From a virus: DNA of 64,000 nt. Location: the IMG/VR virus record IMGVR_UViG_3300035698_032311, positions 1 through 64,000 of that record; one strand, given 5' to 3'. Below, one piece after another: positions 1 through 12,452 of this stretch (position 1 is its first letter; each line of letters opens with the position of its first letter). The notes under the pieces were generated by a model. It did no database searches. It had not been told where the DNA came from and worked only from the letters and a program-made list of their open reading frames with translations. The position numbers and the translations under genes are program-made.

Positions 1-1
1 G

Positions 2-145
2 TTAATAATAAAACCATTATTAAGAAATGAAAGTATTTCTAATTTAAAAGATATAGCAGAAGGATTGCCAGATAAAAAAATGAAAGTTAAATATAAGATA
101 ATTCAACATTTTGCTAAAGAAATTTTAGAAGAAATAAAACCATGA
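2..145 (+). CDS. C-terminal fragment of a gene entering from upstream of the window (hypothetical)
   Basis: Open frame from position 2 to TGA at 143-145 (…DKKMKVKYKIIQHFAKEILEEIKP*); no recognisable domain. Confidence 0.3.
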   Translation, partial: LIIKPLLRNESISNLKDIAEGLPDKKMKVKYKIIQHFAKEILEEIKP

Positions 146-414
146 ACAAAGAAACAACAACAGGTAATCCAGAATATGTAGGAGATTGTCCAATATGTGG
201 TTATCCTTGTTTTAGGGGGGTATGGCACAATTGTTCTACTGCCCCAAAACTTGAAGATAAAATAAAACACAGTTGTATGGGGTGTGAAAAAGAATACGAG
301 CCAGACCAATACTATGCTTGGTGTAATAAATGTGGGAAGAGATTGGAAAAAGAGTTTTGGAGCTCATATTTTAGCTGGTATAAAGGATATATTTTAAAGG
401 TCAAATCTAAATAA
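142..414 (+). CDS. small Cys-rich zinc-ribbon-like protein
   Basis: 90 aa with CPICGYPC…CMGCEK…CNKCGK, i.e. multiple CxxC pairs. Confidence 0.4.
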   Translation: MNKETTTGNPEYVGDCPICGYPCFRGVWHNCSTAPKLEDKIKHSCMGCEKEYEPDQYYAWCNKCGKRLEKEFWSSYFSWYKGYILKVKSK

Positions 415-426
415 AATAACAAAACT

Positions 427-759
427 ATGAAGAAATACTACGGTCACCCCAAATTTTACGAACTATTAGAGGAGATTAAAGAAATTCACAGCTCTAAAAA
501 CCACGATTACGCTAAAACAACAGATCCATTTTCTAATCTAAAAATGTGCGAGGAGATTTATGTCAAGTGTCCACACTGTAAAAAATCACACCCTATTCCG
601 GCTCATATAGGAACTCTTATAAGAATGTCAGATAAATGGTCAAGATTAATTCAGCTCACTAAAAAAGAAGGCAAGAATGAAAGTGTAAGAGATAGCCTTA
701 TGGACTTAGCAGTATATTCGCTATTAAGAATAATACTTTTAGAAGAAGAAAAAAAATGA
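427..759 (+). CDS. small nucleotide-metabolism-associated protein (DUF1599/MazG-like guess)
   Basis: 110 aa; motif HSSKNHDY…DSLMDLAVYSLL recalls DUF1599-type phage proteins; recognised from memory only. Confidence 0.3.
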   Translation: MKKYYGHPKFYELLEEIKEIHSSKNHDYAKTTDPFSNLKMCEEIYVKCPHCKKSHPIPAHIGTLIRMSDKWSRLIQLTKKEGKNESVRDSLMDLAVYSLLRIILLEEEKK

Positions 760-1241
760 AAAAATATTTTAAATATCTTAACTATCTTATAAAGCATAAA
801 TGGTTTGTTTTTCTTGAATGTTGTAAAGAAGGAATTTTCTGGCAAGGTGTTATTCATGATTTATCCAAATTTAAGCCAGATGAATTTTTTCCCTATGCAA
901 ATCATTTTTATGGGGAAAAAAAATATCAAGATGTTAAAGATAGAAATGAAACAGGTTATTATAAACCAATTGATACAGGAGATGATGCATTTGATTTTGC
1001 TTGGTTATTGCACCAAAAAAGAAACAGGCATCATTGGCAATGGTGGATTTTGCCTTACGACAATGGAACTTTTAAGATTTTAGAAATGCCTCTTAAATAT
1101 AAAAAAGAAATGTTCTGTGATTGGAAAGGAGCGGCGAAAGCACAGGGTTATAAAGATAATACAATAGTATGGTATGAAAAACATAAAGATAAAATGCAAC
1201 TAGGTCCAGAAACTAGAGCATGGATAGAAATAAAAATATGA
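756..1241 (+). CDS. conserved phage/bacterial protein with HD-like motif (DUF5662-like)
   Basis: 161 aa; N-terminal HKWFVF.ECCK.GI.W.G..HDLSKF pattern, which I recall from DUF5662. Confidence 0.3.
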   Translation: MKKYFKYLNYLIKHKWFVFLECCKEGIFWQGVIHDLSKFKPDEFFPYANHFYGEKKYQDVKDRNETGYYKPIDTGDDAFDFAWLLHQKRNRHHWQWWILPYDNGTFKILEMPLKYKKEMFCDWKGAAKAQGYKDNTIVWYEKHKDKMQLGPETRAWIEIKI

Positions 1242-1329
1242 AAAAAAAAATCCAAAAAGAAAAAAAAGCAGAAAAAGACTAAAAGACTCAATTATTTCAA
1301 GGGTCCTAAGCAAAAAAATAAGTGAAGTT

Positions 1330-1617
1330 ATGAAAAAAATAAAAATAAAGCGAGTTTGCCATGATTGTGGCAAAGAACTCGTAATCAAAAACAAAAGAAT
1401 AATTGGGGGTAAACTTTTAGTGTATAAAGAAGGAGATAAAGAAATAAACATTTTAAAATGTAATGAATGTTTCAAGAAAAATCCTTCTTTGAATAATTTT
1501 AGAAAATGCGAAGTTTATTCAAGGATTGTCGGTTATCTCAGGCCCGTTAAACAATGGAACATAGGAAAAAAACAAGAGTTTAAGGATCGAAAAAATTTCA
1601 ATATAAAAAATGAATAA
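1330..1617 (+). CDS. stand-alone NrdD C-terminal-like protein (zinc ribbon plus glycyl-radical motif)
   Basis: 95 aa; CHDCGK…(24 aa)…CNEC zinc ribbon, then SRIVGYLRPVKQWNIGKKQEFKDRKNF. This matches the class III RNR glycyl-radical tail pattern R-x-C/V-G-Y-L…(F/W)N-x-G-K-x-x-E…R. Confidence 0.5.
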   Translation: MKKIKIKRVCHDCGKELVIKNKRIIGGKLLVYKEGDKEINILKCNECFKKNPSLNNFRKCEVYSRIVGYLRPVKQWNIGKKQEFKDRKNFNIKNE

Positions 1618-1737
1618 AAATAAACGCAGGCAACGGACCCGCCGAAATAAGAAAAAGAGAAAAAGAGCAAAGAAAAAAATGAATTGCAAAAAAACTGAAT
1701 TTAAAATATCGTAGTAGAAGTAGAAAAAAATTAAAAT

Positions 1738-1808
1738 TCCGAAGTAATGTAATGGTCGCATAGGAGACTTTGATCCTCCTAATCTAGGTTCGAATCCTAG
1801 CTTCGGAG
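1738..1808 (+). tRNA. tRNA-Gln (anticodon TTG)
   Basis: Manual cloverleaf: acceptor tccgaag/cttcgga, T-arm ctagg-ttcgaat-cctag, anticodon loop ctTTGat. Confidence 0.55.
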
Positions 1809-1813
1809 CATAT

Positions 1814-1888
1814 TCCAACGTGGACAAGCAGTATGTCGTCTGTCTCATAAGCAGAAAATCGTAGGTGCAATTCCTACCGTTGGAACCA
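1814..1888 (+). tRNA. tRNA-Met/Ile2-type (anticodon CAT), CCA encoded
   Basis: Acceptor tccaacg/cgttgga plus A plus CCA; anticodon arm tctgt-ctCATaa-gcaga; T-arm gtagg-tgcaatt-cctac. Confidence 0.6.
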
Positions 1889-1889
1889 T

Positions 1890-1975
1890 GGAAGATTGTC
1901 GGGGAAATGGCTATCCCACCTCTCTTGAAAAGAGGAGCTGTAAAAGGCGTGTAGGTTCGAGTCCTACATCTTCCG
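1890..1975 (+). tRNA. tRNA-Ser (anticodon TGA)
   Basis: 86 nt with long variable arm; anticodon arm cctct-ctTGAaa-agagg; T-arm gtagg-ttcgagt-cctac; acceptor ggaagat/atcttcc. Confidence 0.65.
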
Positions 1976-2003
1976 CAGCAAGTAAGTGTGTTGTCTGTTG
2001 TAC

Positions 2004-2089
2004 GGAAGAATATCCAAAATGGACAAGGAAGCGGTTTGCTAAACCGTAAAGGGTAAAAACCTTTGTAGGTTCGAGTCCTACTTCTTCCG
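2004..2089 (+). tRNA. tRNA-Ser (anticodon GCT)
   Basis: 86 nt; anticodon arm gcggt-ttGCTaa-accgt; long variable stem aaaggg/cctttg; T-arm gtagg-ttcgagt-cctac. Confidence 0.6.
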
Positions 2090-2212
2090 CCTATGTTTTT
2101 AATACCAAGTGACATACCTCTATTATTAGAGGCATTAAAGGAAAAAGGATTTATAACTAAAAAAGAATTGATTAGCTATTTAATTAGTTTCTTAATTCGT
2201 TTAATATAAATA

Positions 2213-2286
2213 AGCCAATGTAGCTCAATTTGGCAGAGCAGTTGCTTTGTAAGCATCAGGTTGGGGGTTCGATGCCCTTCATTGGC
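2213..2286 (+). tRNA. tRNA-Thr (anticodon TGT)
   Basis: Acceptor gccaatg/cattggc; D-arm gctc..gagc; anticodon loop ttTGTaa; T-loop ttcgatg. Confidence 0.5.
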
Positions 2287-2292
2287 TCATAT

Positions 2293-2365
2293 ACTACCCT
2301 GTCCTAATTGGCAAAGGAGAAAGTCTTAGACACTTTTTATCTGGGTTCGAGTCCCAGGGGTAGTA
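2293..2365 (+). tRNA. tRNA with Leu-type anticodon TAG but short (4-nt) variable loop
   Basis: Acceptor actaccc/gggtagt, D tcct..agga, anticodon arm aaagt-ctTAGac-acttt, T-arm ctggg-ttcgagt-cccag, discriminator A. Confidence 0.45.
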
Positions 2366-2371
2366 CTATAT

Positions 2372-2444
2372 GTGCCAGTAGCCCAATGGCAGAGGCAACA
2401 GATTTAAGTCCTGTTCAGTGTAGGTTCGAATCCTACTTGGCACA
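2372..2444 (+). tRNA. tRNA with Leu-type anticodon TAA but short variable loop
   Basis: Acceptor gtgccag/ttggcac; anticodon arm acaga-ttTAAgt-cctgt (one A-C closing mismatch); T-arm gtagg-ttcgaat-cctac. Confidence 0.45.
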
Positions 2445-2450
2445 CAAAAT

Positions 2451-2525
2451 GCCACTATGATGCAATTTGGTAGACATATTAGTTTCAAAAACTAAAAATT
2501 GAAGGTTCGAATCCTTCTAGTGGCA
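2451..2525 (+). tRNA. tRNA with Leu-type anticodon CAA but short variable loop
   Basis: Acceptor gccacta/tagtggc; anticodon arm ttagt-ttCAAaa-actaa; T-arm gaagg-ttcgaat-ccttc. Confidence 0.45.
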
Positions 2526-2531
2526 TATAAG

Positions 2532-2602
2532 GGCTTCATCTTCTAGTGGCAGGAAACAAGATTCTCAATCTTGTAACAAGAGTTCAATTCTCTTTGAAGC
2601 CA
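2532..2602 (+). tRNA. tRNA-Glu (anticodon CTC)
   Basis: Acceptor ggcttca/tgaagcc; anticodon arm caaga-ttCTCaa-tcttg; T-arm aagag-ttcaatt-ctctt. Confidence 0.55.
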
Positions 2603-2607
2603 CAAAT

Positions 2608-2678
2608 GACCTTATCAGCTAATGGCAGGCTAGAAGACTTTCATTCTTCCAATGTGGGTTCAACTCCCGCTAGGGTCG
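2608..2678 (+). tRNA. tRNA-Glu (anticodon TTC)
   Basis: Acceptor gacctta/tagggtc; anticodon arm gaaga-ctTTCat-tcttc; T-arm gtggg-ttcaact-cccgc. Confidence 0.55.
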
Positions 2679-2689
2679 CAAATAAAGAT

Positions 2690-2763
2690 GGGAATGTAGC
2701 TTAATAAGGCAGAGCAATTCTCTCTTAAAGAAAAGGTTAAAGGTTCGATTCCTTTCATTCCCA
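2690..2763 (+). tRNA. tRNA-Lys (anticodon CTT)
   Basis: Acceptor gggaatg/cattccc; D gctt..gagc; anticodon loop ctCTTaa; T-arm aaagg-ttcgatt-ccttt. Confidence 0.5.
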
Positions 2764-2773
2764 CTATTGAAGA

Positions 2774-2845
2774 TGGCTTATAGTTCAACGGTAGAACACT
2801 TCTCTGATAAAGAAGAAGTTATAGGTTCAATTCCTATTAAGCCAA
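2774..2845 (+). tRNA. tRNA-Ile (anticodon GAT)
   Basis: Acceptor tggctta/taagcca; D gttc..gaac; anticodon arm cttct-ctGATaa-agaag; T-arm atagg-ttcaatt-cctat. Confidence 0.6.
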
Positions 2846-2959
2846 CAATATTTATTATTAGAATATATAAATAAATGAATTGTAAGAGGTTGCCGATTAA
2901 TAAGGCAAAATAAATTTTCAAAAGAAGATTTAATTGATAACTCTATATAATTCATAAAA

Positions 2960-3031
2960 ACCCCATTAACTCAACAGACAGAGTATTAGCCTTCGAAGCT
3001 AAAAATCTGGGTGCGAATCCTAGATGGGGTA
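2960..3031 (+). tRNA. tRNA-Arg (anticodon TCG)
   Basis: Acceptor accccat/atggggt; D actc..gagt; anticodon arm ttagc-ctTCGaa-gctaa; T-arm ctggg-tgcgaat-cctag. Confidence 0.55.
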
Positions 3032-3032
3032 C

Positions 3033-3104
3033 AGGGATATAGCTTAAAAGTAAAGCTCTATTCTTATAAAATAGAAGATATGGGTGCAAGTCCTATTATC
3101 CCTA
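3033..3104 (+). tRNA. tRNA-Ile (anticodon TAT, reads ATA)
   Basis: Acceptor agggata/tatccct; anticodon arm ctatt-ctTATaa-aatag; T-arm atggg-tgcaagt-cctat. Confidence 0.55.
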
Positions 3105-3110
3105 CTATAC

Positions 3111-3182
3111 TGCAGGGTCATCTAATCGGTAGGATATGAGATTCTGACTCTCATAATTTAGGTTCGAATCCTAATCCTGCAA
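3111..3182 (+). tRNA. tRNA-Gln (anticodon CTG)
   Basis: Acceptor tgcaggg/tcctgca; D atct..ggat; anticodon arm tgaga-ttCTGac-tctca; T-arm ttagg-ttcgaat-cctaa. Confidence 0.5.
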
Positions 3183-3187
3183 CATAA

Positions 3188-3261
3188 GGGAATATAACTC
3201 AATTTGGTAGAGTACCTGTCTTTTAAACAGGAGATTCTAGGTTCGATTCCTAGTATTCCCA
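3188..3261 (+). tRNA. tRNA-Lys (anticodon TTT)
   Basis: Acceptor gggaata/tattccc; anticodon arm cctgt-ctTTTaa-acagg; T-arm ctagg-ttcgatt-cctag. Confidence 0.65.
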
Positions 3262-3264
3262 CAC

Positions 3265-3405
3265 GGAGGCAGAAGACATTGGTCTGAAGCACATTGCAAA
3301 ATCTTATCTCATTCTAGTAGCGGGTAAGTGCGTGAAGTGTATCGATGAAAAAGAGACTTGCTAGAAGTTCTTGAGTAGTTGTTGGTTCAACTCCAACTGC
3401 TTCCA
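3265..3405 (+). tRNA. aberrant 141-nt tRNA-like locus (insertion-disrupted or degenerate tRNA)
   Basis: Perfect T-arm gttgg-ttcaact-ccaac followed by tgcttcc plus A. A 7-nt 5' partner ggaggca (6 WC plus 1 GU) lies 130 nt upstream. No canonical D or anticodon arm could be folded in between. Confidence 0.3.
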
Positions 3406-3454
3406 CAAAAACATGATTATAAAACTAACAATAATAAAGTATTAAAATTCAACA

Positions 3455-3525
3455 AGACCTAGTTACCGAGTAGTCAGGTGGGAGTCTGCAAAACTCTCTA
3501 CATAGGTGCAAATCCTATCTAGGTC
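3455..3525 (+). tRNA. tRNA-Cys (anticodon GCA)
   Basis: Acceptor gacctag/ctaggtc; anticodon arm ggagt-ctGCAaa-actct; T-arm atagg-tgcaaat-cctat. Confidence 0.55.
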
Positions 3526-3526
3526 T

Positions 3527-3817
3527 CATTTAGATATGATTGTGGCAGAATAGACGATAAACCAATATACCAAACGCAATAACTATTAGGCGAAGAAGGT
3601 GGCAAGTCATCTCCAGAGTTCTTGATACGCTTAATGGGAACTGAAGTTTGGTTGATAAGCAAAAAGAACCAGAAGCGATGTTGGTCTAAAAAGTATTGCA
3701 TTATGTTCTACCTGTAGCTGGTAATAAACCAGAAGTAAAAACTGTGAGGGAAGCGGTAGAGATACGCCTCACACTGTAGGGTGGAATATCGAGAATCCCT
3801 ACCAATCATATCTAAAT
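3527..3817. other. 291-bp element bounded by a perfect 15-bp terminal inverted repeat (MITE-like insertion or structured RNA)
   Basis: atttagatatgattg at 3527-3541 is the exact reverse complement of caatcatatctaaat at 3803-3817. The element sits precisely between tRNA-Cys and tRNA-Arg. The interior has an internal hairpin gtaggg…ccctac and no convincing ORF. Confidence 0.45.
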
Positions 3818-3820
3818 AAT

Positions 3821-3893
3821 ACCCCTGTCATCCAATTGGATAGGATACTGGTCTTCTAAACCTGAAATAGTGGTTCGAGTCCACTTGGGGGTA
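3821..3893 (+). tRNA. tRNA-Arg (anticodon TCT)
   Basis: Acceptor acccctg/tgggggt (two GU); D atcc..ggat; anticodon loop ctTCTaa; T-arm agtgg-ttcgagt-ccact. Confidence 0.5.
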
Positions 3894-3899
3894 CATTTT

Positions 3900-3971
3900 G
3901 CCAACGTAGCTCAATGGTAGAGCATTCGCTTGAAAAGCGAGGGGTAATAGGTCCAATTCCTATCGGTGGCA
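3900..3971 (+). tRNA. tRNA-Phe (anticodon GAA)
   Basis: Acceptor gccaacg/cggtggc; D gctc..gagc; anticodon arm ttcgc-ttGAAaa-gcgag; T-arm atagg-tccaatt-cctat. Confidence 0.55.
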
Positions 3972-4009
3972 CTGACAAAAATATTTAATTAGTATAAATA
4001 AACGATAAT

Positions 4010-4097
4010 GGCAAGGTGTGCCGAATGGTGAAGGCACTAGTCTGTAAAACTAGCACCCTAGTGGTAAACATTACAGGTTCGATTCCTGTCCTTGTCA
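4010..4097 (+). tRNA. tRNA-Tyr (anticodon GTA), class II
   Basis: 88 nt; acceptor ggcaagg/ccttgtc; D tgcc..ggca; anticodon arm ctagt-ctGTAaa-actag; long variable arm; T-arm acagg-ttcgatt-cctgt. Confidence 0.6.
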
Positions 4098-4102
4098 CAT
4101 AT

Positions 4103-4174
4103 TTCCGTGTAGTTTAACGGCAAAACAGCTGTGTTACATACAGAAGAGTGTAGGTTCAACTCCTATCACGGAAA
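4103..4174 (+). tRNA. tRNA-Val (anticodon TAC)
   Basis: Acceptor ttccgtg/cacggaa; D gttt..aaac; anticodon loop gtTACat; T-arm gtagg-ttcaact-cctat. Confidence 0.5.
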
Positions 4175-4193
4175 CAGTTGAATTAATTTTTAT

Positions 4194-4264
4194 TCCTCCG
4201 TAGTATAATGGTAATACACTTCTCTGTTAAAGAAGAATTAGCGGTTCGAATCCACTCGGAGGAG
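4194..4264 (+). tRNA. tRNA-Asn (anticodon GTT)
   Basis: Acceptor tcctccg/cggagga; D gtat..atac; anticodon arm cttct-ctGTTaa-agaag; T-loop ttcgaat. Confidence 0.6.
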
Positions 4265-4391
4265 CTAAATAGTATATCTTTCATTTTAATAGTAGTACCT
4301 ATGTACAAAAACGTCTAAATATGATATAATATACTTATAAAGGTCAAAAATATCAATAAAGGTCAATTTAATATAAAAATAAAATAAGACA

Positions 4392-4748
4392 ATGACTAAC
4401 AATACAACAAAAGAAGAAAAATGGGAAGAAGTTAAACCTGGAATTTGGGATTATGTAAATGAGCCAATCTTAATTGGAAATCTCATTGAAATAAAAACTA
4501 ACGTAGGTCCAAATTCATCAAAATTATATACTATTCAGAAAGATGATGACACTTTACTTTCAGTTTGGGGCACTACAATATTAGATGCAAGACTTCAATT
4601 TGTTACTGTTGGAGAGAGAGTTAAAGTTGAATTTACAGGAAAGGGTACACCTAAACCAGGTCGAAAGCCAACATTACTTTTTACAGTATATCATTCTTTA
4701 GCAAAACACGAAGAAAATTTATTAGAAGAAGACGTTCAACTTGATTAG
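4392..4748 (+). CDS. hypothetical protein
   Basis: 118-aa ORF immediately after the tRNA array; no recognisable motif. Confidence 0.35.
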   Translation: MTNNTTKEEKWEEVKPGIWDYVNEPILIGNLIEIKTNVGPNSSKLYTIQKDDDTLLSVWGTTILDARLQFVTVGERVKVEFTGKGTPKPGRKPTLLFTVYHSLAKHEENLLEEDVQLD

Positions 4749-4977
4749 TATGAAGAAACAAATTAATGAAAGAATATTAAAAACATATGGAAGTGTAATA
4801 ATTTCAAGACGTCAGGGGATACTTTTAGCAAAAAAGTTGAAAGATGAAGGTGATATTCGATTAATATTAATTGGAGGTGTAGAAGGAATTGAAGACAAGC
4901 CGACTCATACTGATGGAATGTTAGATTGTTATTTTAAAGTAAAAATGGTCAGAGTTGAAAGTATTAAACCGTGTTAA
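4741..4977 (+). CDS. hypothetical protein
   Basis: 78-aa ORF, overlaps neighbours by a few nt (operon-like). Confidence 0.3.
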   Translation: MISMKKQINERILKTYGSVIISRRQGILLAKKLKDEGDIRLILIGGVEGIEDKPTHTDGMLDCYFKVKMVRVESIKPC

Positions 4978-5182
4978 TAAAATGAAAAATAATTTAAAAC
5001 AAAATTCTCAGCAATTATTGAAACTTTCAGAAGTTGCAAAATATCTTCGTGTTAGTATGAGAACAGTATATAGATATATTTTATCTGGTAAATTAAAAGC
5101 TCATAAAATGCCTGCATGGAGAGTAAAAAAAGCAGATTTAAATACTTTTTTAGATAAATGTGCTAACTATGAAACCAAATAA
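4955..5182 (+). CDS. HTH DNA-binding protein, excisionase/AlpA/MerR-like
   Basis: LLKLSEVAKYLRVSMRTVYRYILSGKLKAHKM..WRV.KADL is a typical helix-turn-helix of the excisionase (HTH_17-type) family. Confidence 0.5.
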   Translation: MKVLNRVNKMKNNLKQNSQQLLKLSEVAKYLRVSMRTVYRYILSGKLKAHKMPAWRVKKADLNTFLDKCANYETK

Positions 5183-5354
5183 AGAAGTGATTAAAACACA
5201 AATTTCAAATCAATTAAAACTTCATTGGTTTTGGCTTAAAAAATTAGAAGATAAAGATATTATTGTTTTTATAAATTGGACTATTGATACATGGTGGAAT
5301 GGAGAACCCAAGATAAAAGCAAGAACTTTAAGAGAAAATATTAGCATTAAATGA
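5160..5354 (+). CDS. hypothetical protein
   Basis: 64-aa ORF. Confidence 0.25.
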   Translation: MLTMKPNKEVIKTQISNQLKLHWFWLKKLEDKDIIVFINWTIDTWWNGEPKIKARTLRENISIK

Positions 5355-5412
5355 AATCTAAAAGATTAAAATATATTCTATTGAGTAAAAAGAATATTAC
5401 TCTTAACAAAAT

Positions 5413-5604
5413 ATGCCAACAAGTAATTCAATATATAAAGGTAAAGGAGTTCGAATAGAATCAGATAAATATGAAAGTTGGTATGGTTGGAGAAAAGATA
5501 AAAAATCTGAAAGGTCGAAAAGTTGGCGTAAAAGACAAAGTCAAAGTGCTTATAAATACCATAAAAAAATACGAAAACAAAAAGTAATAGATCATGACAT
5601 ATAA
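5413..5604 (+). CDS. small highly basic protein
   Basis: 63 aa, K/R-rich (…RKDKKSERSKSWRKRQSQSAYKYHKKIRKQ…). Confidence 0.3.
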   Translation: MPTSNSIYKGKGVRIESDKYESWYGWRKDKKSERSKSWRKRQSQSAYKYHKKIRKQKVIDHDI

Positions 5605-5812
5605 ACAACGACTTAGACAAATAAAAATTACATTGAAAAGACCATATCATGTATTTACTCTTGCTCCAAGAGCACGCAGTGTTAAAGAAAGGATTTTAAT
5701 ATTAGAAGCAGCAAACAAAGAAGTTTTATCTTTTTCAGGTGAAAGCAGGTTCAGTTGTATAAAAGAAGCAGAAAAATATATCAAACAACTTAAAGACACT
5801 GGAAATCTATAA
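5594..5812 (+). CDS. hypothetical protein
   Basis: 72-aa ORF. Confidence 0.3.
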   Translation: MTYKQRLRQIKITLKRPYHVFTLAPRARSVKERILILEAANKEVLSFSGESRFSCIKEAEKYIKQLKDTGNL

Positions 5813-6031
5813 TTGTACTAACGACTTTCTGGCTTCGGCGAGAAAATACGTAGAAGGAGAAGGTTTAATTACTTTTTACGAAGTAAGGAACCATACATTC
5901 TTTTGGAAGGTTGAAATTTCTTTTAAGGAGGAATTTCCCTTCGGATAATTTTCTAACCGAGAGGTAGTATGGACTAGCTTTCTCCTTTAAATTTAAAAGT
6001 CGAAAAATATTAATTAACTTGTTATATTAGT

Positions 6032-6340
6032 ATGGAAGAAGAAAATAAAGTAGAAGAAGAAACTGAAGAATCTTTAGAAAATAAACCTGTTGATGAAGAA
6101 AAAGAAGAAGAATTAGAAGATGATGTTAAAGAAGGCACTGAAGACAAAGAAGAGGACGAAGAAGAGGATGATGAAGAAGAAGATGATGAAGAAGAAGACG
6201 AAAAAGAGGATGATGAAGAAGATGATGAAGAAGATGAAGAAGAGGATGAAGAAGAAGATGAAGAAGAAAGTGATGAAAAAGATGAAGAAGAAAGTGATGA
6301 AAAAGATGAAGAAGGGGATAAAAAAGAAGATGAAGAATAA
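6032..6340 (+). CDS. extremely acidic E/D-rich low-complexity protein
   Basis: 102 aa, >70% Glu/Asp (GAA/GAT repeats). Overlapping ORFs in other frames are repeat artefacts. Confidence 0.5.
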   Translation: MEEENKVEEETEESLENKPVDEEKEEELEDDVKEGTEDKEEDEEEDDEEEDDEEEDEKEDDEEDDEEDEEEDEEEDEEESDEKDEEESDEKDEEGDKKEDEE

Positions 6341-6345
6341 ATAGC

Positions 6346-6564
6346 ATGACACGAAAATATTGTGACATTTGTGGAAAAGAGATTGTGGCTGATTCTTTAT
6401 TTGGGTTATTAGTCAGGTTTGTAAAAACACCGTTTTTTGACAAGAAAACCCAAGTAATGGAAATGAAAGTGAAAGAAGAACATCTTGAGTTGTGTGAAAA
6501 ATGCACTGAGCAAATTTCACAAAAACTTTCTGAAATGAGTAAGAAAGTTAAAAAGGTCAAATAA
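6346..6564 (+). CDS. zinc-ribbon protein
   Basis: 72 aa with CDICGK…CEKC. Confidence 0.4.
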   Translation: MTRKYCDICGKEIVADSLFGLLVRFVKTPFFDKKTQVMEMKVKEEHLELCEKCTEQISQKLSEMSKKVKKVK

Positions 6565-6588
6565 AATTAATTAGAGTCATTAAAGACC

Positions 6589-6819
6589 ATGAAAAAAGTA
6601 AATAGGATTACTGTCGTTATCGGACGGTTTGGAATTGAACCCGAAAGTATTGAAATACCCAAAGGTTCTACTGTCAAAGAAGCATTAGAAGAAGCAGGCA
6701 TTGCTTTAGCCACTGGTGAAAAGGTTTATGTTGGAGGAGACAAAGCTACTTCTAAAGACATTTTAGACGATGGCGATGTAATTAATGTAGTCGGAAGTAA
6801 AGAAGGCGGGGTTCTTTAG
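6589..6819 (+). CDS. ubiquitin-like β-grasp protein (ThiS/MoaD-like) with C-terminal GG-VL
   Basis: 76 aa; ITVVIGRFG…EIPKGSTVKEALEEAGI…ILDDGDVINVVGSKEGGVL parallels ThiS/MoaD …DGDxI……GG. The diglycine is followed by a 2-residue tail. Confidence 0.5.
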   Translation: MKKVNRITVVIGRFGIEPESIEIPKGSTVKEALEEAGIALATGEKVYVGGDKATSKDILDDGDVINVVGSKEGGVL

Positions 6820-6869
6820 AGAATCGCGCCTTTTTTAAAGGTCGTTTAAGTTAAAACAGAAAAAAGATT

Positions 6870-7661
6870 ATGAATCCAAGAGATTTAAAAAAACTCGTTA
6901 TAGGAGTCGTTATCTTAGTATTGTTTTTACTTCTTAACCCCTTTGGTACAATTGGTGCAGGAGAAAGAGGTATTCGATTAAGGTTTGGTGCTGTAGTTGA
7001 TGAGATACTAAACGAAGGTTTATATTTTAGAATACCTTTTGTTGAAGTAGTTAAAAGAATAGATGTAAAGATTCAAAAAGAACAAGTAAAAGCAACTGCT
7101 GCATCTAAAGATTTACAGGAAGTTACTTCTGTTGTGGCTTTGAATTTTCATCTTGATCCAAATAAAGTAACAACAATATATCAAGAAGTCGGAATTGACT
7201 ACGATGATAGAATTATTGCACCTGCTATCCAAGAATCAGTTAAAGCTTCTACTGCTCAATTCACAGCAGAAGAATTGATTACTAAAAGAGCTGAAGTCAG
7301 AGAAAAAATTAGAATTATATTAATAGGAAAAATTGAAAAAAGAGGAATAATAGTTGATGACTTCAATATTATTGATTTAGACTTCTCGGCAGCATTTAAT
7401 AGAGCTATTGAAGCTAAAGTAACTGCAGAACAAGATGCATTAGCTGCTCAAAATAAGTTAGCACAAGTAGAATTTGAAGCAACACAAAAAGTGACCAAAG
7501 CTACTGCAGATGCAGAAGCAATTAGAATTCAGGCTCAAGCTATTACTCAGCAGGGTGGTAAAGATTATGTCCAATTACAAGCAATTGATAAATGGAATGG
7601 AATACTACCAGTAAATTGGTATGGTGGTTCAGTGCTTCCTTTTATAGATATCGGACACTAA
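6870..7661 (+). CDS. SPFH/band-7 (prohibitin/HflKC-like) membrane protein
   Basis: N-terminal TM segment, then GERGIRLRFGAVVDEILNEGLYFRIPFVEVVKRIDVKIQ and a long Ala/Gln-rich coiled coil, classic for the SPFH domain. Confidence 0.75.
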   Translation: MNPRDLKKLVIGVVILVLFLLLNPFGTIGAGERGIRLRFGAVVDEILNEGLYFRIPFVEVVKRIDVKIQKEQVKATAASKDLQEVTSVVALNFHLDPNKVTTIYQEVGIDYDDRIIAPAIQESVKASTAQFTAEELITKRAEVREKIRIILIGKIEKRGIIVDDFNIIDLDFSAAFNRAIEAKVTAEQDALAAQNKLAQVEFEATQKVTKATADAEAIRIQAQAITQQGGKDYVQLQAIDKWNGILPVNWYGGSVLPFIDIGH

Positions 7662-7662
7662 T

Positions 7663-7905
7663 ATGAAAAAAGGTTTTACAGTAATAGAACTTCTAGTAAC
7701 AATAGCAATTATCGGTACTTTGTTAGGAATTTTTATGGTTTCTTTACAAAATGCTAGAGAAAAAATAACAAATCCTGCTTATAAAGAATGTCAAGAAGAA
7801 GAAAACGAGTGTCGAAATGATTGCGCCAATTTTGCTGTAGATTTAAGTGATTGTCTTTTAAGATGCAATATTTTAAAAGAAAGTTGTTTAAACGTAATTG
7901 ATTAA
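7663..7905 (+). CDS. type IV pilin-like protein (prepilin-type N-terminal cleavage/methylation domain)
   Basis: MKKGFTVIELLVTIAIIGTLLGIFMV matches the G|FT(L/V)IEL prepilin peptidase site plus hydrophobic helix. Short Cys-rich C-terminus. Confidence 0.65.
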   Translation: MKKGFTVIELLVTIAIIGTLLGIFMVSLQNAREKITNPAYKECQEEENECRNDCANFAVDLSDCLLRCNILKESCLNVID

Positions 7906-7912
7906 TTATAGA

Positions 7913-8141
7913 GGCATAAGTAGTTCCTATTATATTTGCGATTTCAGGATCAAAAGTCTTGAAATTGCAAGCAACCTTATTACTACTCGCCTCTTAATAA
8001 AAAATAAAAGTGGCATAGGCAGTTCCTATTACAATTACATTTTGGATTTAAATACTGCCCGCCACCAACAGGAAAGTAGTTCAATGGTAGAACACAGGCT
8101 TAATTTACTTTTCGCTTTTAGCAAAAAAAGTTCCTATTATA
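7913..8141. repeat. three direct copies of an agttcctatta-containing repeat at about 100-bp spacing
   Basis: ggcataagtagttcctattata at 7913-7934 and ggcataggcagttcctattaca at 8012-8033 match 19/22; the agttcctattata core recurs at 8129-8141. Confidence 0.6.
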
Positions 8142-8183
8142 AACTGGGTGCCTGTGATGTAGGTTCGATTCCTACCTTTCCTA
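8070..8183 (+). tRNA. tRNA gene interrupted by a ~43-nt insertion in the anticodon loop (possible anticodon TGG, Pro, if spliced)
   Basis: Perfect acceptor aggaaag/ctttcct (7 WC), D-arm gttc-aatggta-gaac, T-arm gtagg-ttcgatt-cctac. The anticodon stem halves caggc (8095-8099) and gcctg (8150-8154) are separated by 50 nt instead of 7. The insert carries the third copy of the agttcctattata repeat. Confidence 0.45.
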
Positions 8184-8225
8184 CAAATATAAAAAGGTCA
8201 TATATTAATTTAACAAAGTAAATAC

Positions 8226-10190
8226 ATGAACACTTCAATTCTTAGGCTTTTTAAAGCTTTACCCATAAAAACTAAAAGAAAAAAAACCAACAAAGATTTG
8301 TTGATGAAAACCATCAAGAAAGGTTTTATATTTTCTCCAGAAGTTATTTATACTTATCCAAACTATATCAAGCTAATAGAAATGGTAGAAAAACTCTTTG
8401 GAATAACTGCTGAAAAATTAAATAGTTCTTTTCACAAATCTTGGGTTAAGGTAAAAAATGCTGATATAGAACAATTGGTAGTGGAACAAATAGCACACTA
8501 TTTGACAACATATGGTAAAGAGCAACCAAAAGAATATTTGATAGAAAAGGAAGTACAATGGGGTGTTAATCATTTAGCTGAAAAGATACTTGAATTGAAA
8601 GATTTTGAATCAAATAAAATTCAAGATGAAAATTATATTTATATTCCCAAAGAAAAGTTAGATATTCCTGAACTTGATATTGATGGAATAAAATTAGTAG
8701 TTATTAAAGGATATACTAAAAAAGAATTGAAAGAGAAGTTATTGAAACTGCTTGGTTTAGGAATAGCGTTAGGTGAAGATACAATAAAAGATGTGTTAAA
8801 TGTAGCTACTTTTGTTGAATTAAATGAAAAAGATTTAGAAAATATTAAAAATAAAGAAGTAAGAGTCACGCTTTATGATAATTTGAATTTGTTGCCGGAA
8901 AGCCCTATTGAATTTTTGAGATTTGTTATTTATAAAGCAACAGATAAAACTCTTCTGATTAAAAGTTCTGTATTAATAAAAGAGATAAAAGAACATAAAA
9001 ATACCGGTATTACTAAACTTTTTACTGAATATAAACAAAAGTATGGATTAGAAAAACTAGCAGAAATATTTTATCGTTTTAAACCCCTTTTTCTAGCGTT
9101 CAGAATAAACAAAACATCAAAAAAGACAATAAATAAAATAAGAAGATTAGCTGTAAAGTACCACAAACCACTACCAGAAGATTATCTTAACAACATTACA
9201 TCCAAGTTGAAGAAAGGAGAAAAAGTAGGCAGTAATAAACTAAAAGAAGAACTGGACAAAGTTAACGTGTTTCGCAAGATTAGATTGGCTTATGCTTTGA
9301 AATTTAGAACAAAAGATGTTAAATCAATTTTGTACAAGATAAGGAATGGAAAAGGATATGCTACATCTTTCGATTTTATAAAGAAAGCAGGTGCCAAGAG
9401 AATATTAGACATTGTATTAGATTCAATTGTTAAAGATATTAGCAAAAATGTAAAGAACAAAAAAATCTATATTCCTGAACATATAACATATAGTTTGCCT
9501 GCAACTGAAAAACAATTTACAGGAAATTTTCCCTCAGGAACATTTGTATCAATTCCCAAAGATATGATTGTTGGTATTAGTTGGGCAAACGTAAACGGTG
9601 ATATGATTGACTTAGACTTATCTATGATTTCACCAACAACTGGTAAAATAGGTTGGGATGTGGGTTATAGAACAAAAAGTAAAAATATATTGTTCTCGGG
9701 AGATATAACAAATGCTCCTAATGGTGCTACAGAGTTGTTTTACATACAAAGACAAACTAAAAAAGCACTTATACTTCTTGTTAATTATTATAATTTTAAT
9801 GAAGACATAGAAGTTCCATTTAAAATAATTGTAGCTAAAGAAAAAACAGATGATTTTAAAGAAAATTATATGGTAAATCCTAACAATGTTATGTCTGTTG
9901 CTGAATCAAAAATCAATCAAAGAGAAAAAATATTAGGTTTATTGGTTACAACTTCTGATGAATGCAGATTTTATTTTACTGAAACATATATAGGTAAATC
10001 AATAACTTCTACTGGCTCAGATTTTGTAGAACACAGTAGAAAATATCTCTTTGATTTCTATGAAAATACTATTAGATTAGAAGATGTTTTGATAAAAGCG
10101 GGTGCTAAAATAGTTGATAAAGATAAAGCTGATATTGATTTATCACCAGAAAACTTAGAAAAAGATACTATATTAAATTTGCTAGTTTAA
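8226..10190 (+). CDS. large protein with C-terminal TerD-like (tellurite-resistance/Ca-binding) domain
   Basis: 654 aa; residues ~440-580 read GISWANVNGDMIDLDLSMIS…GKIGWDVGY…ILFSGDITNAPNGATELFYI…ILLVNYYN. This follows the TerD pattern GWDV…DLDLSa…SGDNLTG…E.I.I…A.vTIhd. Confidence 0.45.
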   Translation: MNTSILRLFKALPIKTKRKKTNKDLLMKTIKKGFIFSPEVIYTYPNYIKLIEMVEKLFGITAEKLNSSFHKSWVKVKNADIEQLVVEQIAHYLTTYGKEQPKEYLIEKEVQWGVNHLAEKILELKDFESNKIQDENYIYIPKEKLDIPELDIDGIKLVVIKGYTKKELKEKLLKLLGLGIALGEDTIKDVLNVATFVELNEKDLENIKNKEVRVTLYDNLNLLPESPIEFLRFVIYKATDKTLLIKSSVLIKEIKEHKNTGITKLFTEYKQKYGLEKLAEIFYRFKPLFLAFRINKTSKKTINKIRRLAVKYHKPLPEDYLNNITSKLKKGEKVGSNKLKEELDKVNVFRKIRLAYALKFRTKDVKSILYKIRNGKGYATSFDFIKKAGAKRILDIVLDSIVKDISKNVKNKKIYIPEHITYSLPATEKQFTGNFPSGTFVSIPKDMIVGISWANVNGDMIDLDLSMISPTTGKIGWDVGYRTKSKNILFSGDITNAPNGATELFYIQRQTKKALILLVNYYNFNEDIEVPFKIIVAKEKTDDFKENYMVNPNNVMSVAESKINQREKILGLLVTTSDECRFYFTETYIGKSITSTGSDFVEHSRKYLFDFYENTIRLEDVLIKAGAKIVDKDKADIDLSPENLEKDTILNLLV

Positions 10191-10212
10191 AGATTTAAAA
10201 GGATCAAGTAAG

Positions 10213-11109
10213 ATGAACAGTTGGTTTAAACAATATTATAATAAATGCATTCAAATTTTAGATGAAATGAGATCTAAAATTGAAAAAAAAGTTTCAAGAT
10301 TAAAAGAAGATATCGCATTTTATCTCGAAAGATCGACTAAAGCAACATTACGTTTGAGAGAACAACAAAAAATGGAAATGTTGTTTGAACAATTAAAAGT
10401 AGAAAAAGCTGCATTAGAAAAACTTAAAAAATACAGAAAAGAACTTGATACTAATGTTTTCATAAAAGAACAGTTTCTAAAATTGAAATCGCATCATAAA
10501 ATTGAAAAAGTATTATTCAGATTCGATAATAAAATTATTGATATTTACACAGAAGAATTAAAAGTTTCAGGATCAAGAATTGGAAAATTCAGAATATCTA
10601 TTGAATTAAATAATAGTACACCATTTAAAATTAAAAATTTAACATATAAAGTTAATGATAAGTTTGATCATTGGTTTGTTAAAAATGAAAAACCATGCTT
10701 TGGAAGCTGGCAACCTGTTGTTGATAAATATTTACAAACAGGACATGTCTTTTTATGTATTGACACATTAATTCATTTTTTATTATCAATAAAAGGCGAA
10801 CACGGTTTTTTAAAATCTAAAGATTGGCTTAAAAGTTTTACTGAACAAAAACATTATAAAAGTAACACAAATTCAGGTTATCTAACAGTTGATATGGAAA
10901 CTACTGTAAATGCGGGCGATTCATACTATCTTAATCATATTATGAGTAGAACAAGAGTTGGTCCTAGCATTTATGCTTCTGTGCCCGAAATAGCAACTAG
11001 TCCAAGAAATGTATACATGGCAGTATCTCCAGGATTTATAAATGAGTCACCTTCAACAACTAATATGCCTATAACAACATGGTTATATGACAATAATGCA
11101 GCTAGTTAA
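10213..11109 (+). CDS. hypothetical protein, coiled-coil N-terminus; weak E2/UBC-like patch
   Basis: 298 aa; HWFVKNEKPCFGSWQPVV…GHVFLCIDTLIHFLLSI loosely resembles the UBC HPN…C…W.P…LLSI order. Confidence 0.3.
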   Translation: MNSWFKQYYNKCIQILDEMRSKIEKKVSRLKEDIAFYLERSTKATLRLREQQKMEMLFEQLKVEKAALEKLKKYRKELDTNVFIKEQFLKLKSHHKIEKVLFRFDNKIIDIYTEELKVSGSRIGKFRISIELNNSTPFKIKNLTYKVNDKFDHWFVKNEKPCFGSWQPVVDKYLQTGHVFLCIDTLIHFLLSIKGEHGFLKSKDWLKSFTEQKHYKSNTNSGYLTVDMETTVNAGDSYYLNHIMSRTRVGPSIYASVPEIATSPRNVYMAVSPGFINESPSTTNMPITTWLYDNNAAS

Positions 11110-11111
11110 AT

Positions 11112-11777
11112 ATGAAATTAATATTTAATAAAAAAAGTTATCTCAAATTAAAATATTTCACTCGGAATGTAAATACAGAAATATCAGGATTGGGTGAAAG
11201 TGTGCTTGTTACACCCTCAATAATACGAGTTGATAATATAGAAATTTTTCCCCAAACATGTTCTTACGCAAGTACTCAATTAGACGAAGATATGTTAGCT
11301 AAGTTCTTACACAAGAGAACTGTAAATAATGAAGATGTTTCAAAATACAATATTTGGTGGCACTCACACAATGATTTTTCAACATTTTGGAGTGGTATAG
11401 ATGAAAATACCATTGAAACAACCACAAGCAATCCTTATTTAATTTCAATAGTTGTCAATAAAAAATTAGATTTTTTAGCTCGAATTGATATTTTCAAACC
11501 GATTAGATTAACCTTTTCATTAGACGTCTTATCACCCCTCAAAATTCGCAATAACCAAAAAATAAAAGAGTATTGCCTTCGAAGAATTAAAAAACATGTT
11601 AAAAGACCGAAAATATTTATTCCTCAAAATATTAAAAAACTTTCTCGATATCCAATATTTAAAGATTTTTTAGAAGAAAATAATATCCTTCAATTAAAAC
11701 CATATTCAAAATCAACTTTAGATGAAATAGATCGTTTTTTAGAAAGTGTGGGTATATATTATAAACATACTCTGTAA
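11112..11777 (+). CDS. JAB/MPN (JAMM) metallopeptidase
   Basis: Complete JAMM signature H-S-H-NDFSTFW-S-GI-D (HxHx7Sx2D) with upstream EISGLGES. Confidence 0.65.
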   Translation: MKLIFNKKSYLKLKYFTRNVNTEISGLGESVLVTPSIIRVDNIEIFPQTCSYASTQLDEDMLAKFLHKRTVNNEDVSKYNIWWHSHNDFSTFWSGIDENTIETTTSNPYLISIVVNKKLDFLARIDIFKPIRLTFSLDVLSPLKIRNNQKIKEYCLRRIKKHVKRPKIFIPQNIKKLSRYPIFKDFLEENNILQLKPYSKSTLDEIDRFLESVGIYYKHTL

Positions 11778-12452
11778 ATGTCTAAAAAAAATACTAAAAT
11801 AGATTATTCAAGGCAGAAAGACCTTTTTAATCCGATTCTTTTTCCAGAGGGTGTAAGTATTATAGGCTTAGGCACAATAGGCTCTAATGTTGCTTATTGT
11901 TTGGCACGATTAGGAATACACCATCTAAGCATTTGGGATCACGATATTGTCAATTTTGTAAATCTTCCGAGCCAAGCATATTCATATAGCGATGTTGGTA
12001 AATCTAAGACATTATCATTGGCAAAATCTTTAAAAAACTTTTTGAAGACAATTATTTTATATAATAATATTAAACCCAAGACAAAATTTACTTCAAAAGT
12101 AGATGTACATTTTATAGATCCAATTATTGTAATTGCAGTAGACAGTATGAAAGAAAGAGAAAAGCTCTGCAAAATACTAATAAAAAAGCAGAAAAAAAGC
12201 AATAAAAGGTTTGTCATTATTGATGGAAGAATTGGAGGTTCTCAAATTGAAATATATACAAGAACTAATCTTGAAAAATGGAAAAAAACCTTTTCTAAAT
12301 ATCCAGATCAAGATCCGTGCGGTGCTCGAAATATTTCTTATATTGGAACTATAATTGCAGGGCTTATTAGTAATCAAGTTAAAAGAATTCTTAAACATGA
12401 AGGAATCAAGCTTGATATTCTTTTTAATATAGATTCTTTACAACTTTTGTAA
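11778..12452 (+). CDS. E1-like ThiF/MoeB-family adenylyltransferase (Ubl-activating)
   Basis: DYSRQ…VSIIGLGTIGSNVAYCLARLGIHHLSIWDHDIVNFVNLPSQ…DVGKSKTLSLAKSLK is the diagnostic ThiF/MoeB/E1 Rossmann region; compact 224-aa form. Confidence 0.75.
   Translation: MSKKNTKIDYSRQKDLFNPILFPEGVSIIGLGTIGSNVAYCLARLGIHHLSIWDHDIVNFVNLPSQAYSYSDVGKSKTLSLAKSLKNFLKTIILYNNIKPKTKFTSKVDVHFIDPIIVIAVDSMKEREKLCKILIKKQKKSNKRFVIIDGRIGGSQIEIYTRTNLEKWKKTFSKYPDQDPCGARNISYIGTIIAGLISNQVKRILKHEGIKLDILFNIDSLQLL

What the first reader, a model, noticed from the sequence alone, without database searches (positions are those of the whole stretch)
3527..3817. 291-bp element with perfect 15-bp terminal inverted repeats inserted between two tRNA genes
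atttagatatgattg and its exact reverse complement bound the element. It begins 2 nt after tRNA-Cys and ends 3 nt before tRNA-Arg. There is no ORF longer than 30 codons with an RBS, and there is an internal gtaggg/ccctac hairpin. The size and terminal inverted repeats fit a MITE. Alternatively the 15-bp helix could close a structured RNA (a small ribozyme or intron-like element, or an sRNA processed with the tRNA array).
Basis: seen in the sequence. Interest (0 to 1): 0.5.

Follow-up and report, generated by a model that had tools for sequence, protein, structure and literature searches.

The report
Orphan hairpin-closed RNA in phage tRNA operon
A 290-base stretch closed by a perfect 15-base-pair helix fills the gap between two tRNA genes of an uncultivated phage; it is most likely a small non-coding RNA cut out together with the tRNAs, but no relative exists anywhere searched, so this stays a candidate rather than a discovery.

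Summary
The segment lies between tRNA-Cys(GCA) and tRNA-Arg(TCT), inside a 22-tRNA array of a low-GC tailed phage.

A perfect 15-bp inverted repeat somewhere in the window is not rare (27% of shuffles). Arms flush with both tRNA ends are (about 1e-7).

The MITE reading is not supported: there is no second copy in the window, IMG/VR, GTDB genomes, JGI metagenomes, GenBank phages or plasmids. There is no empty site, no non-palindromic target duplication, and no transposase, recombinase or reverse transcriptase among the ORFs scanned.

The RNA reading fits better but is unproven. The element is on the tRNA strand without terminator-like sites or strong promoter matches inside it. Its GC is 39%, against 44% for the tRNAs and 0-22% for ordinary spacers. 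It has no credible ORF and no Rfam match. In a modelled precursor it folds as a separate module between the two cloverleaves.

Without the terminal helix the fold is only marginally better than shuffles (z = -1.7). All six other contigs from this phage match the window exactly, so covariation cannot be tested.

The closest analogues are T4 species 1/2 RNAs and the ROOL/GOLLD RNAs found near phage tRNA islands. Interest is moderate to low.

The parts
3528..3817 (+). The whole element: 290 nt, candidate non-coding RNA
   Evidence: Bounded by the perfect inverted repeat. GC is 39%, against 31% for the window, 44% for the tRNAs and 0-22% for ordinary spacers. No Rfam match. MFE is -80.3 kcal/mol, z = -4.4.
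3528..3542 (+). 5' arm of the terminal helix P1 / left inverted repeat
   Evidence: ATTTAGATATGATTG. It pairs 15/15 Watson-Crick with 3803-3817, with mean pair probability 0.95.
3803..3817 (+). 3' arm of the terminal helix P1 / right inverted repeat
   Evidence: CAATCATATCTAAAT, the exact reverse complement of 3528-3542.
3545..3715 (+). Predicted long arm (element positions 18-188). Four short helices separated by small internal loops lead to a three-way junction.
   Evidence: MFE and partition function. The 10-bp helix 3583-3592/3628-3637 has p = 1.0 and two G-U pairs, so it forms only on the + strand. Helix 3569-3575/3646-3652 has p = 0.93. Hairpin 3665-3687 has p about 0.6-0.8. This is a prediction from one sequence only.
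3718..3732 (+). Predicted hairpin CUGGU-AAUAA-ACCAG
   Evidence: Pair probability 0.99.
3743..3773 (+). Predicted hairpin UGUGAGG...CCUCACA
   Evidence: Pair probability 0.82.
3776..3802 (+).
   Evidence: Pair probability 0.78. The loop UAUCGAGAA can pair with UUCUUGAUA at 3618-3626, but this is only marginally better than shuffled loops (26 of 500).
3456..3527 (+). Upstream tRNA-Cys(GCA). Its 3' processing site defines the 5' end of the released RNA.
   Evidence: ARAGORN; Rfam tRNA 50.6 bits. CCA is not encoded.
3821..3894 (+). Downstream tRNA-Arg(TCT). Its RNase P site defines the 3' end of the released RNA.
   Evidence: ARAGORN; Rfam tRNA 54.6 bits.

Best explanation
The element is a stand-alone, lineage-specific non-coding RNA gene inside the phage's tRNA operon.

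Proposed steps:
1. It is transcribed on the + strand as part of the poly-tRNA precursor.
2. It is released by the enzymes that mature the neighbouring tRNAs. 3' processing of tRNA-Cys (RNase Z type, since CCA is not encoded) cuts after 3526. RNase P cuts at the 5' end of tRNA-Arg, before 3821.
3. The product is an RNA of about 294 nt. Its two ends are locked in a 15-bp helix with overhangs of only 1 nt (5') and 3 nt (3').
4. The terminal helix closes a multi-branched body and shields both ends from exonucleases, giving a stable RNA that acts in trans during infection.

Shown: the anatomy, strand, composition and modular predicted fold. Inferred: transcription, the processing sites, stability and any trans function.

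The same helix could also serve as a double-strand processing stem, like the stems that flank rRNAs.
For: - The element is on the same strand as all 22 tRNAs, with no terminator-like sites and no strong promoter-like matches inside it.
- The helix arms sit 1 nt and 3 nt from the tRNA ends. The chance of this is about 1e-7.
- In a fold of the 439-nt Cys-element-Arg precursor, the two tRNA acceptor stems and P1 form as three separate modules.
- GC is 39%, close to the tRNAs (44%) and far from the ordinary spacers of this array (0-22%). It lies at the 95th percentile of 290-nt windows.
- The + strand is G-rich over C (0.228 vs 0.162), as in the tRNAs.
- The best-supported internal helix (p = 1.0) has two G-U pairs, so it exists only on the + strand. 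The + strand MFE is -80.3 against -74.7 for the - strand.
- No frame has a Pfam or PHROG match.
- Precedent: the T4 tRNA cluster carries the stable RNAs rnaC and rnaD directly abutting tRNA-Arg (PMC2330249). ROOL and GOLLD RNAs are 'often near tRNA islands' of phages (PMC12286853).
- The same array holds a second non-tRNA, GC-rich, end-paired RNA candidate at 3265-3409.
Against: - There is no homologue anywhere, so there is no covariation.
- All six other contigs from this phage (L024-L029) match the window exactly.
- Without P1 the internal 260 nt fold only marginally better than shuffles: z = -1.7, with 13 of 200 shuffles as good. The - strand does about as well.
- A 15/15 Watson-Crick helix with no G-U pair is what a DNA-level repeat would also give.
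- No partner protein was identified in the window.
- There are no expression data.
Confidence: 0.45

Rival explanations
1. It is a non-autonomous mobile DNA element (MITE-like). It inserted into a normal 4-nt inter-tRNA spacer, and its terminal inverted repeats are transposase binding sites. Any RNA structure is a by-product.
For: - The terminal repeats are perfect over 15 bp, and the size of 290 bp is within the MITE range.
- Deleting the element leaves 'CAAT', a 4-nt spacer like the 4-5-nt spacers elsewhere in the array.
- Its GC differs from the surrounding non-coding DNA.
- A palindromic 2-bp 'AT' duplication cannot be excluded from the sequence.
- Small mobile elements do exist in phage genomes, for example the 439-bp MPME1 of mycobacteriophages (PMC3029335).
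Against: - It is single-copy in the window.
- The repeat pair at this spacing is absent from IMG/VR and from 185,579 species genomes.
- The body is absent from IMG/VR, GTDB genomes, JGI metagenomes, GenBank phages and plasmids.
- No empty site was found.
- There is no non-palindromic target duplication.
- No transposase was found among the window ORFs scanned.
- Caveat: the host genome may be unsampled, and exact-pattern scans miss diverged copies.
Confidence: 0.18
2. It is a cis-acting processing cassette. The 15-bp helix is a double-strand RNase (RNase III-type) site or a folding insulator that separates two halves of the poly-tRNA transcript. The 260-nt body has no function of its own and is degraded.
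For: - The helix brings the 3' end of tRNA-Cys next to the 5' end of tRNA-Arg, and the three modules fold independently.
- The internal fold is weak.
- rRNA operons use flanking inverted repeats in this way (established knowledge).
Against: - The other 20 junctions of the array manage with 0-37-nt AT spacers.
- A mere spacer would not need 39% GC over 260 nt.
- 15 bp is short for classical RNase III substrates (established knowledge).
Confidence: 0.15
3. It is non-functional filler: a decayed remnant of earlier genes or a rearrangement scar. The inverted repeat arose from a DNA-level event such as a palindrome-forming repair or replication error.
For: - It is an orphan sequence, single-copy and without relatives.
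- A perfect 15-bp inverted repeat somewhere in the window is not unusual.
- The internal fold is marginal.
Against: - Flush placement of both arms has a chance of about 1e-7.
- GC is far above that of the neutral spacers of the same array.
- There is no trace of a tRNA or of any protein family in any frame.
Confidence: 0.1
4. It is an invertible DNA switch (inverton), or a retron-like msr-msd RNA whose flanking repeats play the a1/a2 role.
For: - The inverted repeats flank a segment of about 260 bp, as in fimS-type switches.
- The a1/a2-like end pairing has a G two nucleotides after the 5' arm.
Against: - No invertase, integrase or reverse transcriptase was found among the window ORFs scanned.
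- The four independent assemblies that reach into the element (window, L024, L025, L029) all show the same orientation.
- No promoter-like site inside the element scores above background.
Confidence: 0.04

Closest known systems
Phage T4 species 1 and species 2 RNAs (rnaC, rnaD)
   Same: They are small stable RNAs of unknown function encoded inside a phage tRNA gene cluster, on the tRNA strand. They abut a tRNA by 1-6 nt (NC_000866: rnaD 71053-71171 lies next to tRNA-Arg 71173-71247). [quoted passage not shown]
   Different: The T4 RNAs are 119 and 139 nt, and rnaC has a tRNA-like T-arm. The element here is 290 nt, has no T-arm, has a much longer (15-bp) perfect terminal helix, and shares no sequence similarity with them. 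The neighbouring 145-nt RNA candidate at 3265-3409 resembles rnaC more closely.
ROOL and GOLLD large phage RNAs
   Same: They are structured RNAs of unknown function encoded by phages and prophages, 'often near tRNA islands' (PMC12286853).
   Different: GOLLD members often exceed 800 nt (PMC12286853), and ROOL is roughly 580 nt (from memory, not checked here). Both have conserved, covariation-supported folds. Neither Rfam model matches the element even at E <= 10.
Bacterial MITEs and the ultra-small phage mobile elements MPME1/2
   Same: They are short, bounded by inverted repeats and found in intergenic positions. MPME1 is a 439-bp element that moves between mycobacteriophage genomes (PMC3029335).
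   Different: MITEs and MPMEs are multi-copy, with identifiable empty sites in relatives. MPMEs carry a small ORF and 11-bp repeats (from memory of the original description). This element is single-copy, with no empty site and no ORF.
Processing stems of rRNA operons
   Same: Inverted repeats flanking a stable RNA pair in the precursor, bringing both ends together next to co-transcribed tRNAs (established knowledge).
   Different: Those stems are longer and imperfect, and RNase III cuts within them. Here the ends can be made by tRNA-processing enzymes alone, and the enclosed RNA matches no rRNA model.

Membership tests
MITE (miniature inverted-repeat transposable element) | Terminal inverted repeats | tested here: met
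   Perfect 15-bp repeats at 3528-3542 and 3803-3817.
MITE (miniature inverted-repeat transposable element) | Multiple copies in the same or the host genome | tested here: not met
   One copy in the window. No match to the repeat pair or the body in IMG/VR, GTDB genomes, JGI metagenomes, phages or plasmids. The host genome may be unsampled.
MITE (miniature inverted-repeat transposable element) | Direct target-site duplication flanking the repeats | tested here: inconclusive
   The flanks are C | element | AAT, with no direct repeat. A palindromic 2-bp 'AT' hidden in the outer repeat positions cannot be excluded.
MITE (miniature inverted-repeat transposable element) | Empty sites in related genomes | tested here: not met
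   The pattern tRNA-Cys end, N{1,20}, tRNA-Arg start gave 0 matches in JGI metagenomes. No close relative of the phage exists in the collections.
Any Rfam family (incl. ROOL, GOLLD, RNase P, tmRNA, 6S, SRP, group I/II introns, small ribozymes, HEARO) | Score at or above the family's covariance-model threshold | tested here: not met
   cmscan of the element alone at E <= 10 gave only two chance-level hits (14.6 and 13.8 bits). The whole-window gathering scan found tRNAs only.
tRNA-operon-embedded stable phage RNA (T4 rnaC/rnaD kind) | Encoded within a phage tRNA cluster, on the same strand, abutting tRNAs | tested here: met
   T4 comparison.
tRNA-operon-embedded stable phage RNA (T4 rnaC/rnaD kind) | Accumulates as a discrete stable RNA, processed from the tRNA precursor | not testable with these tools
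   No expression data are available. Modular folding of the modelled precursor is compatible with it.
tRNA-operon-embedded stable phage RNA (T4 rnaC/rnaD kind) | Sequence or structure homology to rnaC/rnaD | not tested
   The 290-nt element was never compared directly with T4 rnaC or rnaD. The only indirect check, blastn (distant mode) of the element against GenBank phages, gave chance-level hits. One search aligned the neighbouring 3265-3411 RNA candidate, not this element, to rnaC and showed no convincing homology. The resemblance is in kind, not descent.
Retron msr-msd RNA | Adjacent reverse transcriptase gene | tested here: not met
   No RVT-family hit among the window ORFs scanned. tRNA genes, not an ORF, follow the element.
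Invertible promoter switch | Nearby site-specific recombinase, and both orientations present in populations | tested here: not met
   No recombinase among the window ORFs scanned. The four assemblies that reach into the element have the same orientation. Read-level data were not available.

The most novel reading that the evidence does not exclude
The element founds a new class of structured phage RNA of about 290 nt. It would be matured purely by the host tRNA-processing enzymes, have a multi-way-junction body clamped by a long terminal helix, and act in trans during infection. Possible roles are a decoy or sponge for a host RNA-binding or tRNA-targeting defence factor. Because its 5'-phosphate and 3'-OH ends are held side by side, it could also be a substrate for circularisation.
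Probability: 0.3. Interest if true: 0.55.

Novelty: new member of a known kind. Interest (0 to 1): 0.3.

Why it matters
Phage tRNA clusters repeatedly harbour non-tRNA RNAs whose functions are still unknown: T4 species 1/2 for about 50 years, and more recently ROOL and GOLLD. This would be another unrelated example, from a phage lineage far from any cultured one, whose capsid protein is at most 36% identical to any in the GenBank phage collection. It would add to the case that tRNA operons serve as general expression and processing platforms for phage RNAs.

With a single sequence and no relatives it cannot yet move that question forward. Its value is as a flagged candidate for metatranscriptome checks.

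Tried and rejected
Homologue searches, all negative:
- blastn (distant mode) against GenBank phages and plasmids.
- nhmmer against 35 fetched loci.
- Exact scans for repeat-gap-repeat in IMG/VR and GTDB genomes.
- The 3' 21-mer of tRNA-Cys in IMG/VR.
- Pseudo-protein scans. I translated the element in a nearly open frame so that the search for related loci would scan five or six degenerate 24-nt windows at once. This was run on IMG/VR twice, on JGI metagenomes and on GTDB genomes. It returned only L029, an identical copy of the same phage.
- Exact look-up and full HMMER search of the 60-aa minus-strand ORF. It is not on record, and the only hits are repetitive junk.

Searches for related tRNA arrays through neighbouring genes:
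- The 118-aa downstream gene and the 198-aa spurious ORF over the tRNAs are orphans.
- Relatives found through the 161-aa and 654-aa proteins lack comparable tRNA arrays; only two of them carry one or two isolated tRNAs.
- Homologues of the NrdD-like gene are mostly cellular. One phage-like contig, L035, has tRNA-Cys followed by tRNA-Thr with no insert, but that tRNA is too diverged to count as an empty site.
- 90%-identity clusters of ten neighbouring genes contain essentially only this phage.

Readings rejected:
- Protein-coding in the standard code. Reassigned stop codons were considered but not translated; TAA, TGA and TAG all end long ORFs in the window.
- An intron of a split tRNA: both flanks are complete tRNAs, and ARAGORN with introns allowed finds nothing spanning the element.
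- Decayed tRNA genes: no tRNA-model hit inside the element.
- A loop-to-bulge pseudoknot: only p of about 0.05.

Full report
**Context**

The window is a low-GC (31%) tailed-phage genome segment. It encodes a Mu gpT-like major capsid protein, an S78 prohead protease, a tail tube protein and a Dit protein. It also encodes SLT and PG_binding_1 wall-degrading proteins and a large glycan-biosynthesis cluster. The capsid protein is at most 36% identical to any in the GenBank phage collection. The peptidoglycan-directed enzymes and an N-methyl pilin motif point to a bacterial host. The closest homologues of the small NrdD-like gene upstream of the array are in Patescibacteria MAGs, which is a weak hint about the host.

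Positions 1738-4265 carry 22 tRNA genes, all on the + strand. Most junctions between them are 0-10 nt of pure A/T.

**Observation**

The inverted repeat is exact. ATTTAGATATGATTG at 3528-3542 pairs with CAATCATATCTAAAT at 3803-3817, with 260 nt between. The element is therefore 3528-3817, 290 bp, one base shorter than reported. One nucleotide (C3527) separates it from tRNA-Cys(GCA), and three (AAT) separate it from tRNA-Arg(TCT). The gtaggg/ccctac hairpin exists at 3776-3802.

The repeat alone is not statistically striking. It is the longest in the window, but 27% of dinucleotide shuffles contain a perfect 15-bp inverted repeat within 600 nt. The placement is what stands out. Both arms lie within 3 nt of the tRNA boundaries of one of the few long gaps, which has a probability of about 1e-7.

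**What it is not**

- Not a known RNA family. Rfam 15 gives nothing over 1-8000 at E <= 1, nothing real on the element alone at E <= 10, and only tRNAs at gathering thresholds over the whole window.
- Not a protein gene or the remnant of one. Every frame is broken except a 60-codon minus-strand ORF. No frame matches Pfam or PHROGs at E <= 1. The ORF is not a called gene anywhere, and its only HMMER hits among 1.84 billion representatives are two repetitive junk sequences.
- Not an intron of a split tRNA and not decayed tRNAs.
- Not accompanied by a transposase, recombinase or reverse transcriptase among the window ORFs scanned.

**Test of the MITE reading**

A MITE should be multi-copy and should leave empty sites. 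Neither was found.

- The window has one copy.
- The repeat pair at this spacing is absent from IMG/VR and from one genome of each of 185,579 species.
- The body was scanned as five or six degenerate 24-nt windows per run. It is absent from IMG/VR and GTDB genomes. In JGI metagenomes it occurs only as a contig identical to the window.
- blastn against 50,697 phage and 72,556 plasmid records gives chance-level hits only.
- An empty Cys-Arg junction is absent from JGI metagenomes.
- The flanks show no direct duplication, although a palindromic 2-bp AT could hide in the outermost repeat positions.

One point favours insertion. Removing the 290 bp leaves CAAT, a normal 4-nt spacer for this array.

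These searches rely on exact patterns or on at least 65-70% identity, and the host is probably unsampled. The MITE reading is therefore weakened, not excluded.

**Test of the RNA reading**

Several observations fit.

- The element is on the tRNA strand, with no terminator-like sites and no strong promoter-like matches inside it, so it must be transcribed with the array.
- Its GC (39%) is like the tRNAs (44%). It is unlike the real spacers (0-22%) and the AT-rich leader and trailer of the array (28% and 18%).
- The + strand is G-rich over C, as in the tRNAs.
- The full element folds to -80.3 kcal/mol (z = -4.4).
- P1 closes a four-way junction made of one long arm and three hairpins. The long arm contains a 10-bp helix with pair probability 1.0 and two G-U pairs, which makes that helix + strand-specific.
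- In the 439-nt Cys-element-Arg precursor, the two acceptor stems and P1 form as independent modules. CCA is not encoded in tRNA-Cys. Endonucleolytic 3' processing of that tRNA together with RNase P cleavage at tRNA-Arg would therefore release an RNA of about 294 nt. Both its ends would be buried in a 15-bp helix. This step is an inference from established tRNA-processing knowledge.

Several weaknesses remain.

- Without P1 the body folds only marginally better than shuffles (z = -1.7), and the minus strand does about as well.
- A candidate loop-bulge pseudoknot has p of about 0.05.
- No covariation test is possible. Every public contig of this phage is 100% identical to the window, and neighbouring genes have essentially no close variants.

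**Comparison with known systems**

The kind is known.

- T4 encodes the stable RNAs rnaD (119 nt) and rnaC (139 nt) directly after tRNA-Arg in its tRNA cluster (PMC2330249).
- ROOL and GOLLD are large structured phage RNAs often found near tRNA islands (PMC12286853).

The element shares the location, strand and lack of known function with these. It does not match the ROOL or GOLLD models, and it was not compared directly with T4 rnaC or rnaD. The same array has a second candidate at 3265-3409. It is 145 nt with GC 42%, an acceptor-like terminal stem and a T-arm, and it resembles T4 rnaC in architecture though not in sequence.

**Verdict**

The MITE interpretation fails its own refutation test as far as it can be run here.

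The best-supported reading is an orphan non-coding RNA co-processed with the tRNAs (confidence about 0.45). The rivals are a MITE-like insertion (0.18), a purely cis-acting processing stem (0.15), non-functional filler (0.10) and an inverton or retron-like RNA (0.04).

It is a new, unrelated member of a known kind. Interest is 0.3, because nothing further can be learned without expression data or relatives.

Noticed in passing
window 3265-3409 (+): A second non-tRNA RNA candidate in the array, 145 nt long. It has an acceptor-like terminal stem (GGAGGCAG/CUGCUUCC) and a T-arm (GUUGG-UUCAACU-CCAAC). Its GC is 42%, against 15% for the AT-rich spacer that follows (3410-3455). ARAGORN does not call it a tRNA, and Rfam scores it 16.9 bits. 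Its architecture recalls T4 rnaC (species 1 RNA), without sequence similarity.
   Followed up: partly
window 8070-8183 (+): A 23rd tRNA, found by Rfam (62.2 bits) but missed by ARAGORN. It carries an insertion of about 43 nt in the anticodon loop (CAGGC-[50 nt]-GCCUG). It lies outside the array, just upstream of the 654-aa gene. The insert is too short for a group I intron, which is odd for a phage whose host looks bacterial.
   Followed up: partly
window 6589-12452 (+): A ubiquitin-like conjugation cassette: a ThiS/Ub-like 76-aa protein, unknown 654-aa and 298-aa proteins, a 221-aa protein with a JAB/MPN-type HSH...S..D motif (seen by eye), and a ThiF/E1-like protein.
   Followed up: no
window 39289-59331 (-): A large sugar-modification cluster embedded among the structural genes. 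It includes a DegT aminotransferase, an epimerase/dehydratase, an APS kinase-sulfotransferase fusion, further sulfotransferases, several methyltransferases and glycosyltransferases.
   Followed up: no
window 1330-1617 (+); loci L031-L033: A 95-aa protein resembling the C-terminal glycyl-radical domain of NrdD sits directly upstream of the tRNA array. Its closest homologues (about 60-77% identity) are small genes next to FUR and rubrerythrin, some of them labelled as Patescibacteria MAGs. This is a possible hint about the host lineage.
   Followed up: partly
window 2847-2959 and 2092-2213 (+): Two further long gaps in the array are AT-rich (18-21% GC). By eye, 2847-2959 contains a terminator-like hairpin (TTGCCGATTAATAAGGCAA) and a TTGATA...TATAAT promoter-like pair, which would mean the array is more than one transcription unit. 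The consensus scan did not list either site.
   Followed up: no
window 6032-6340 (+): A 102-aa ORF made almost entirely of Glu/Asp/Lys low-complexity repeats.
   Followed up: no
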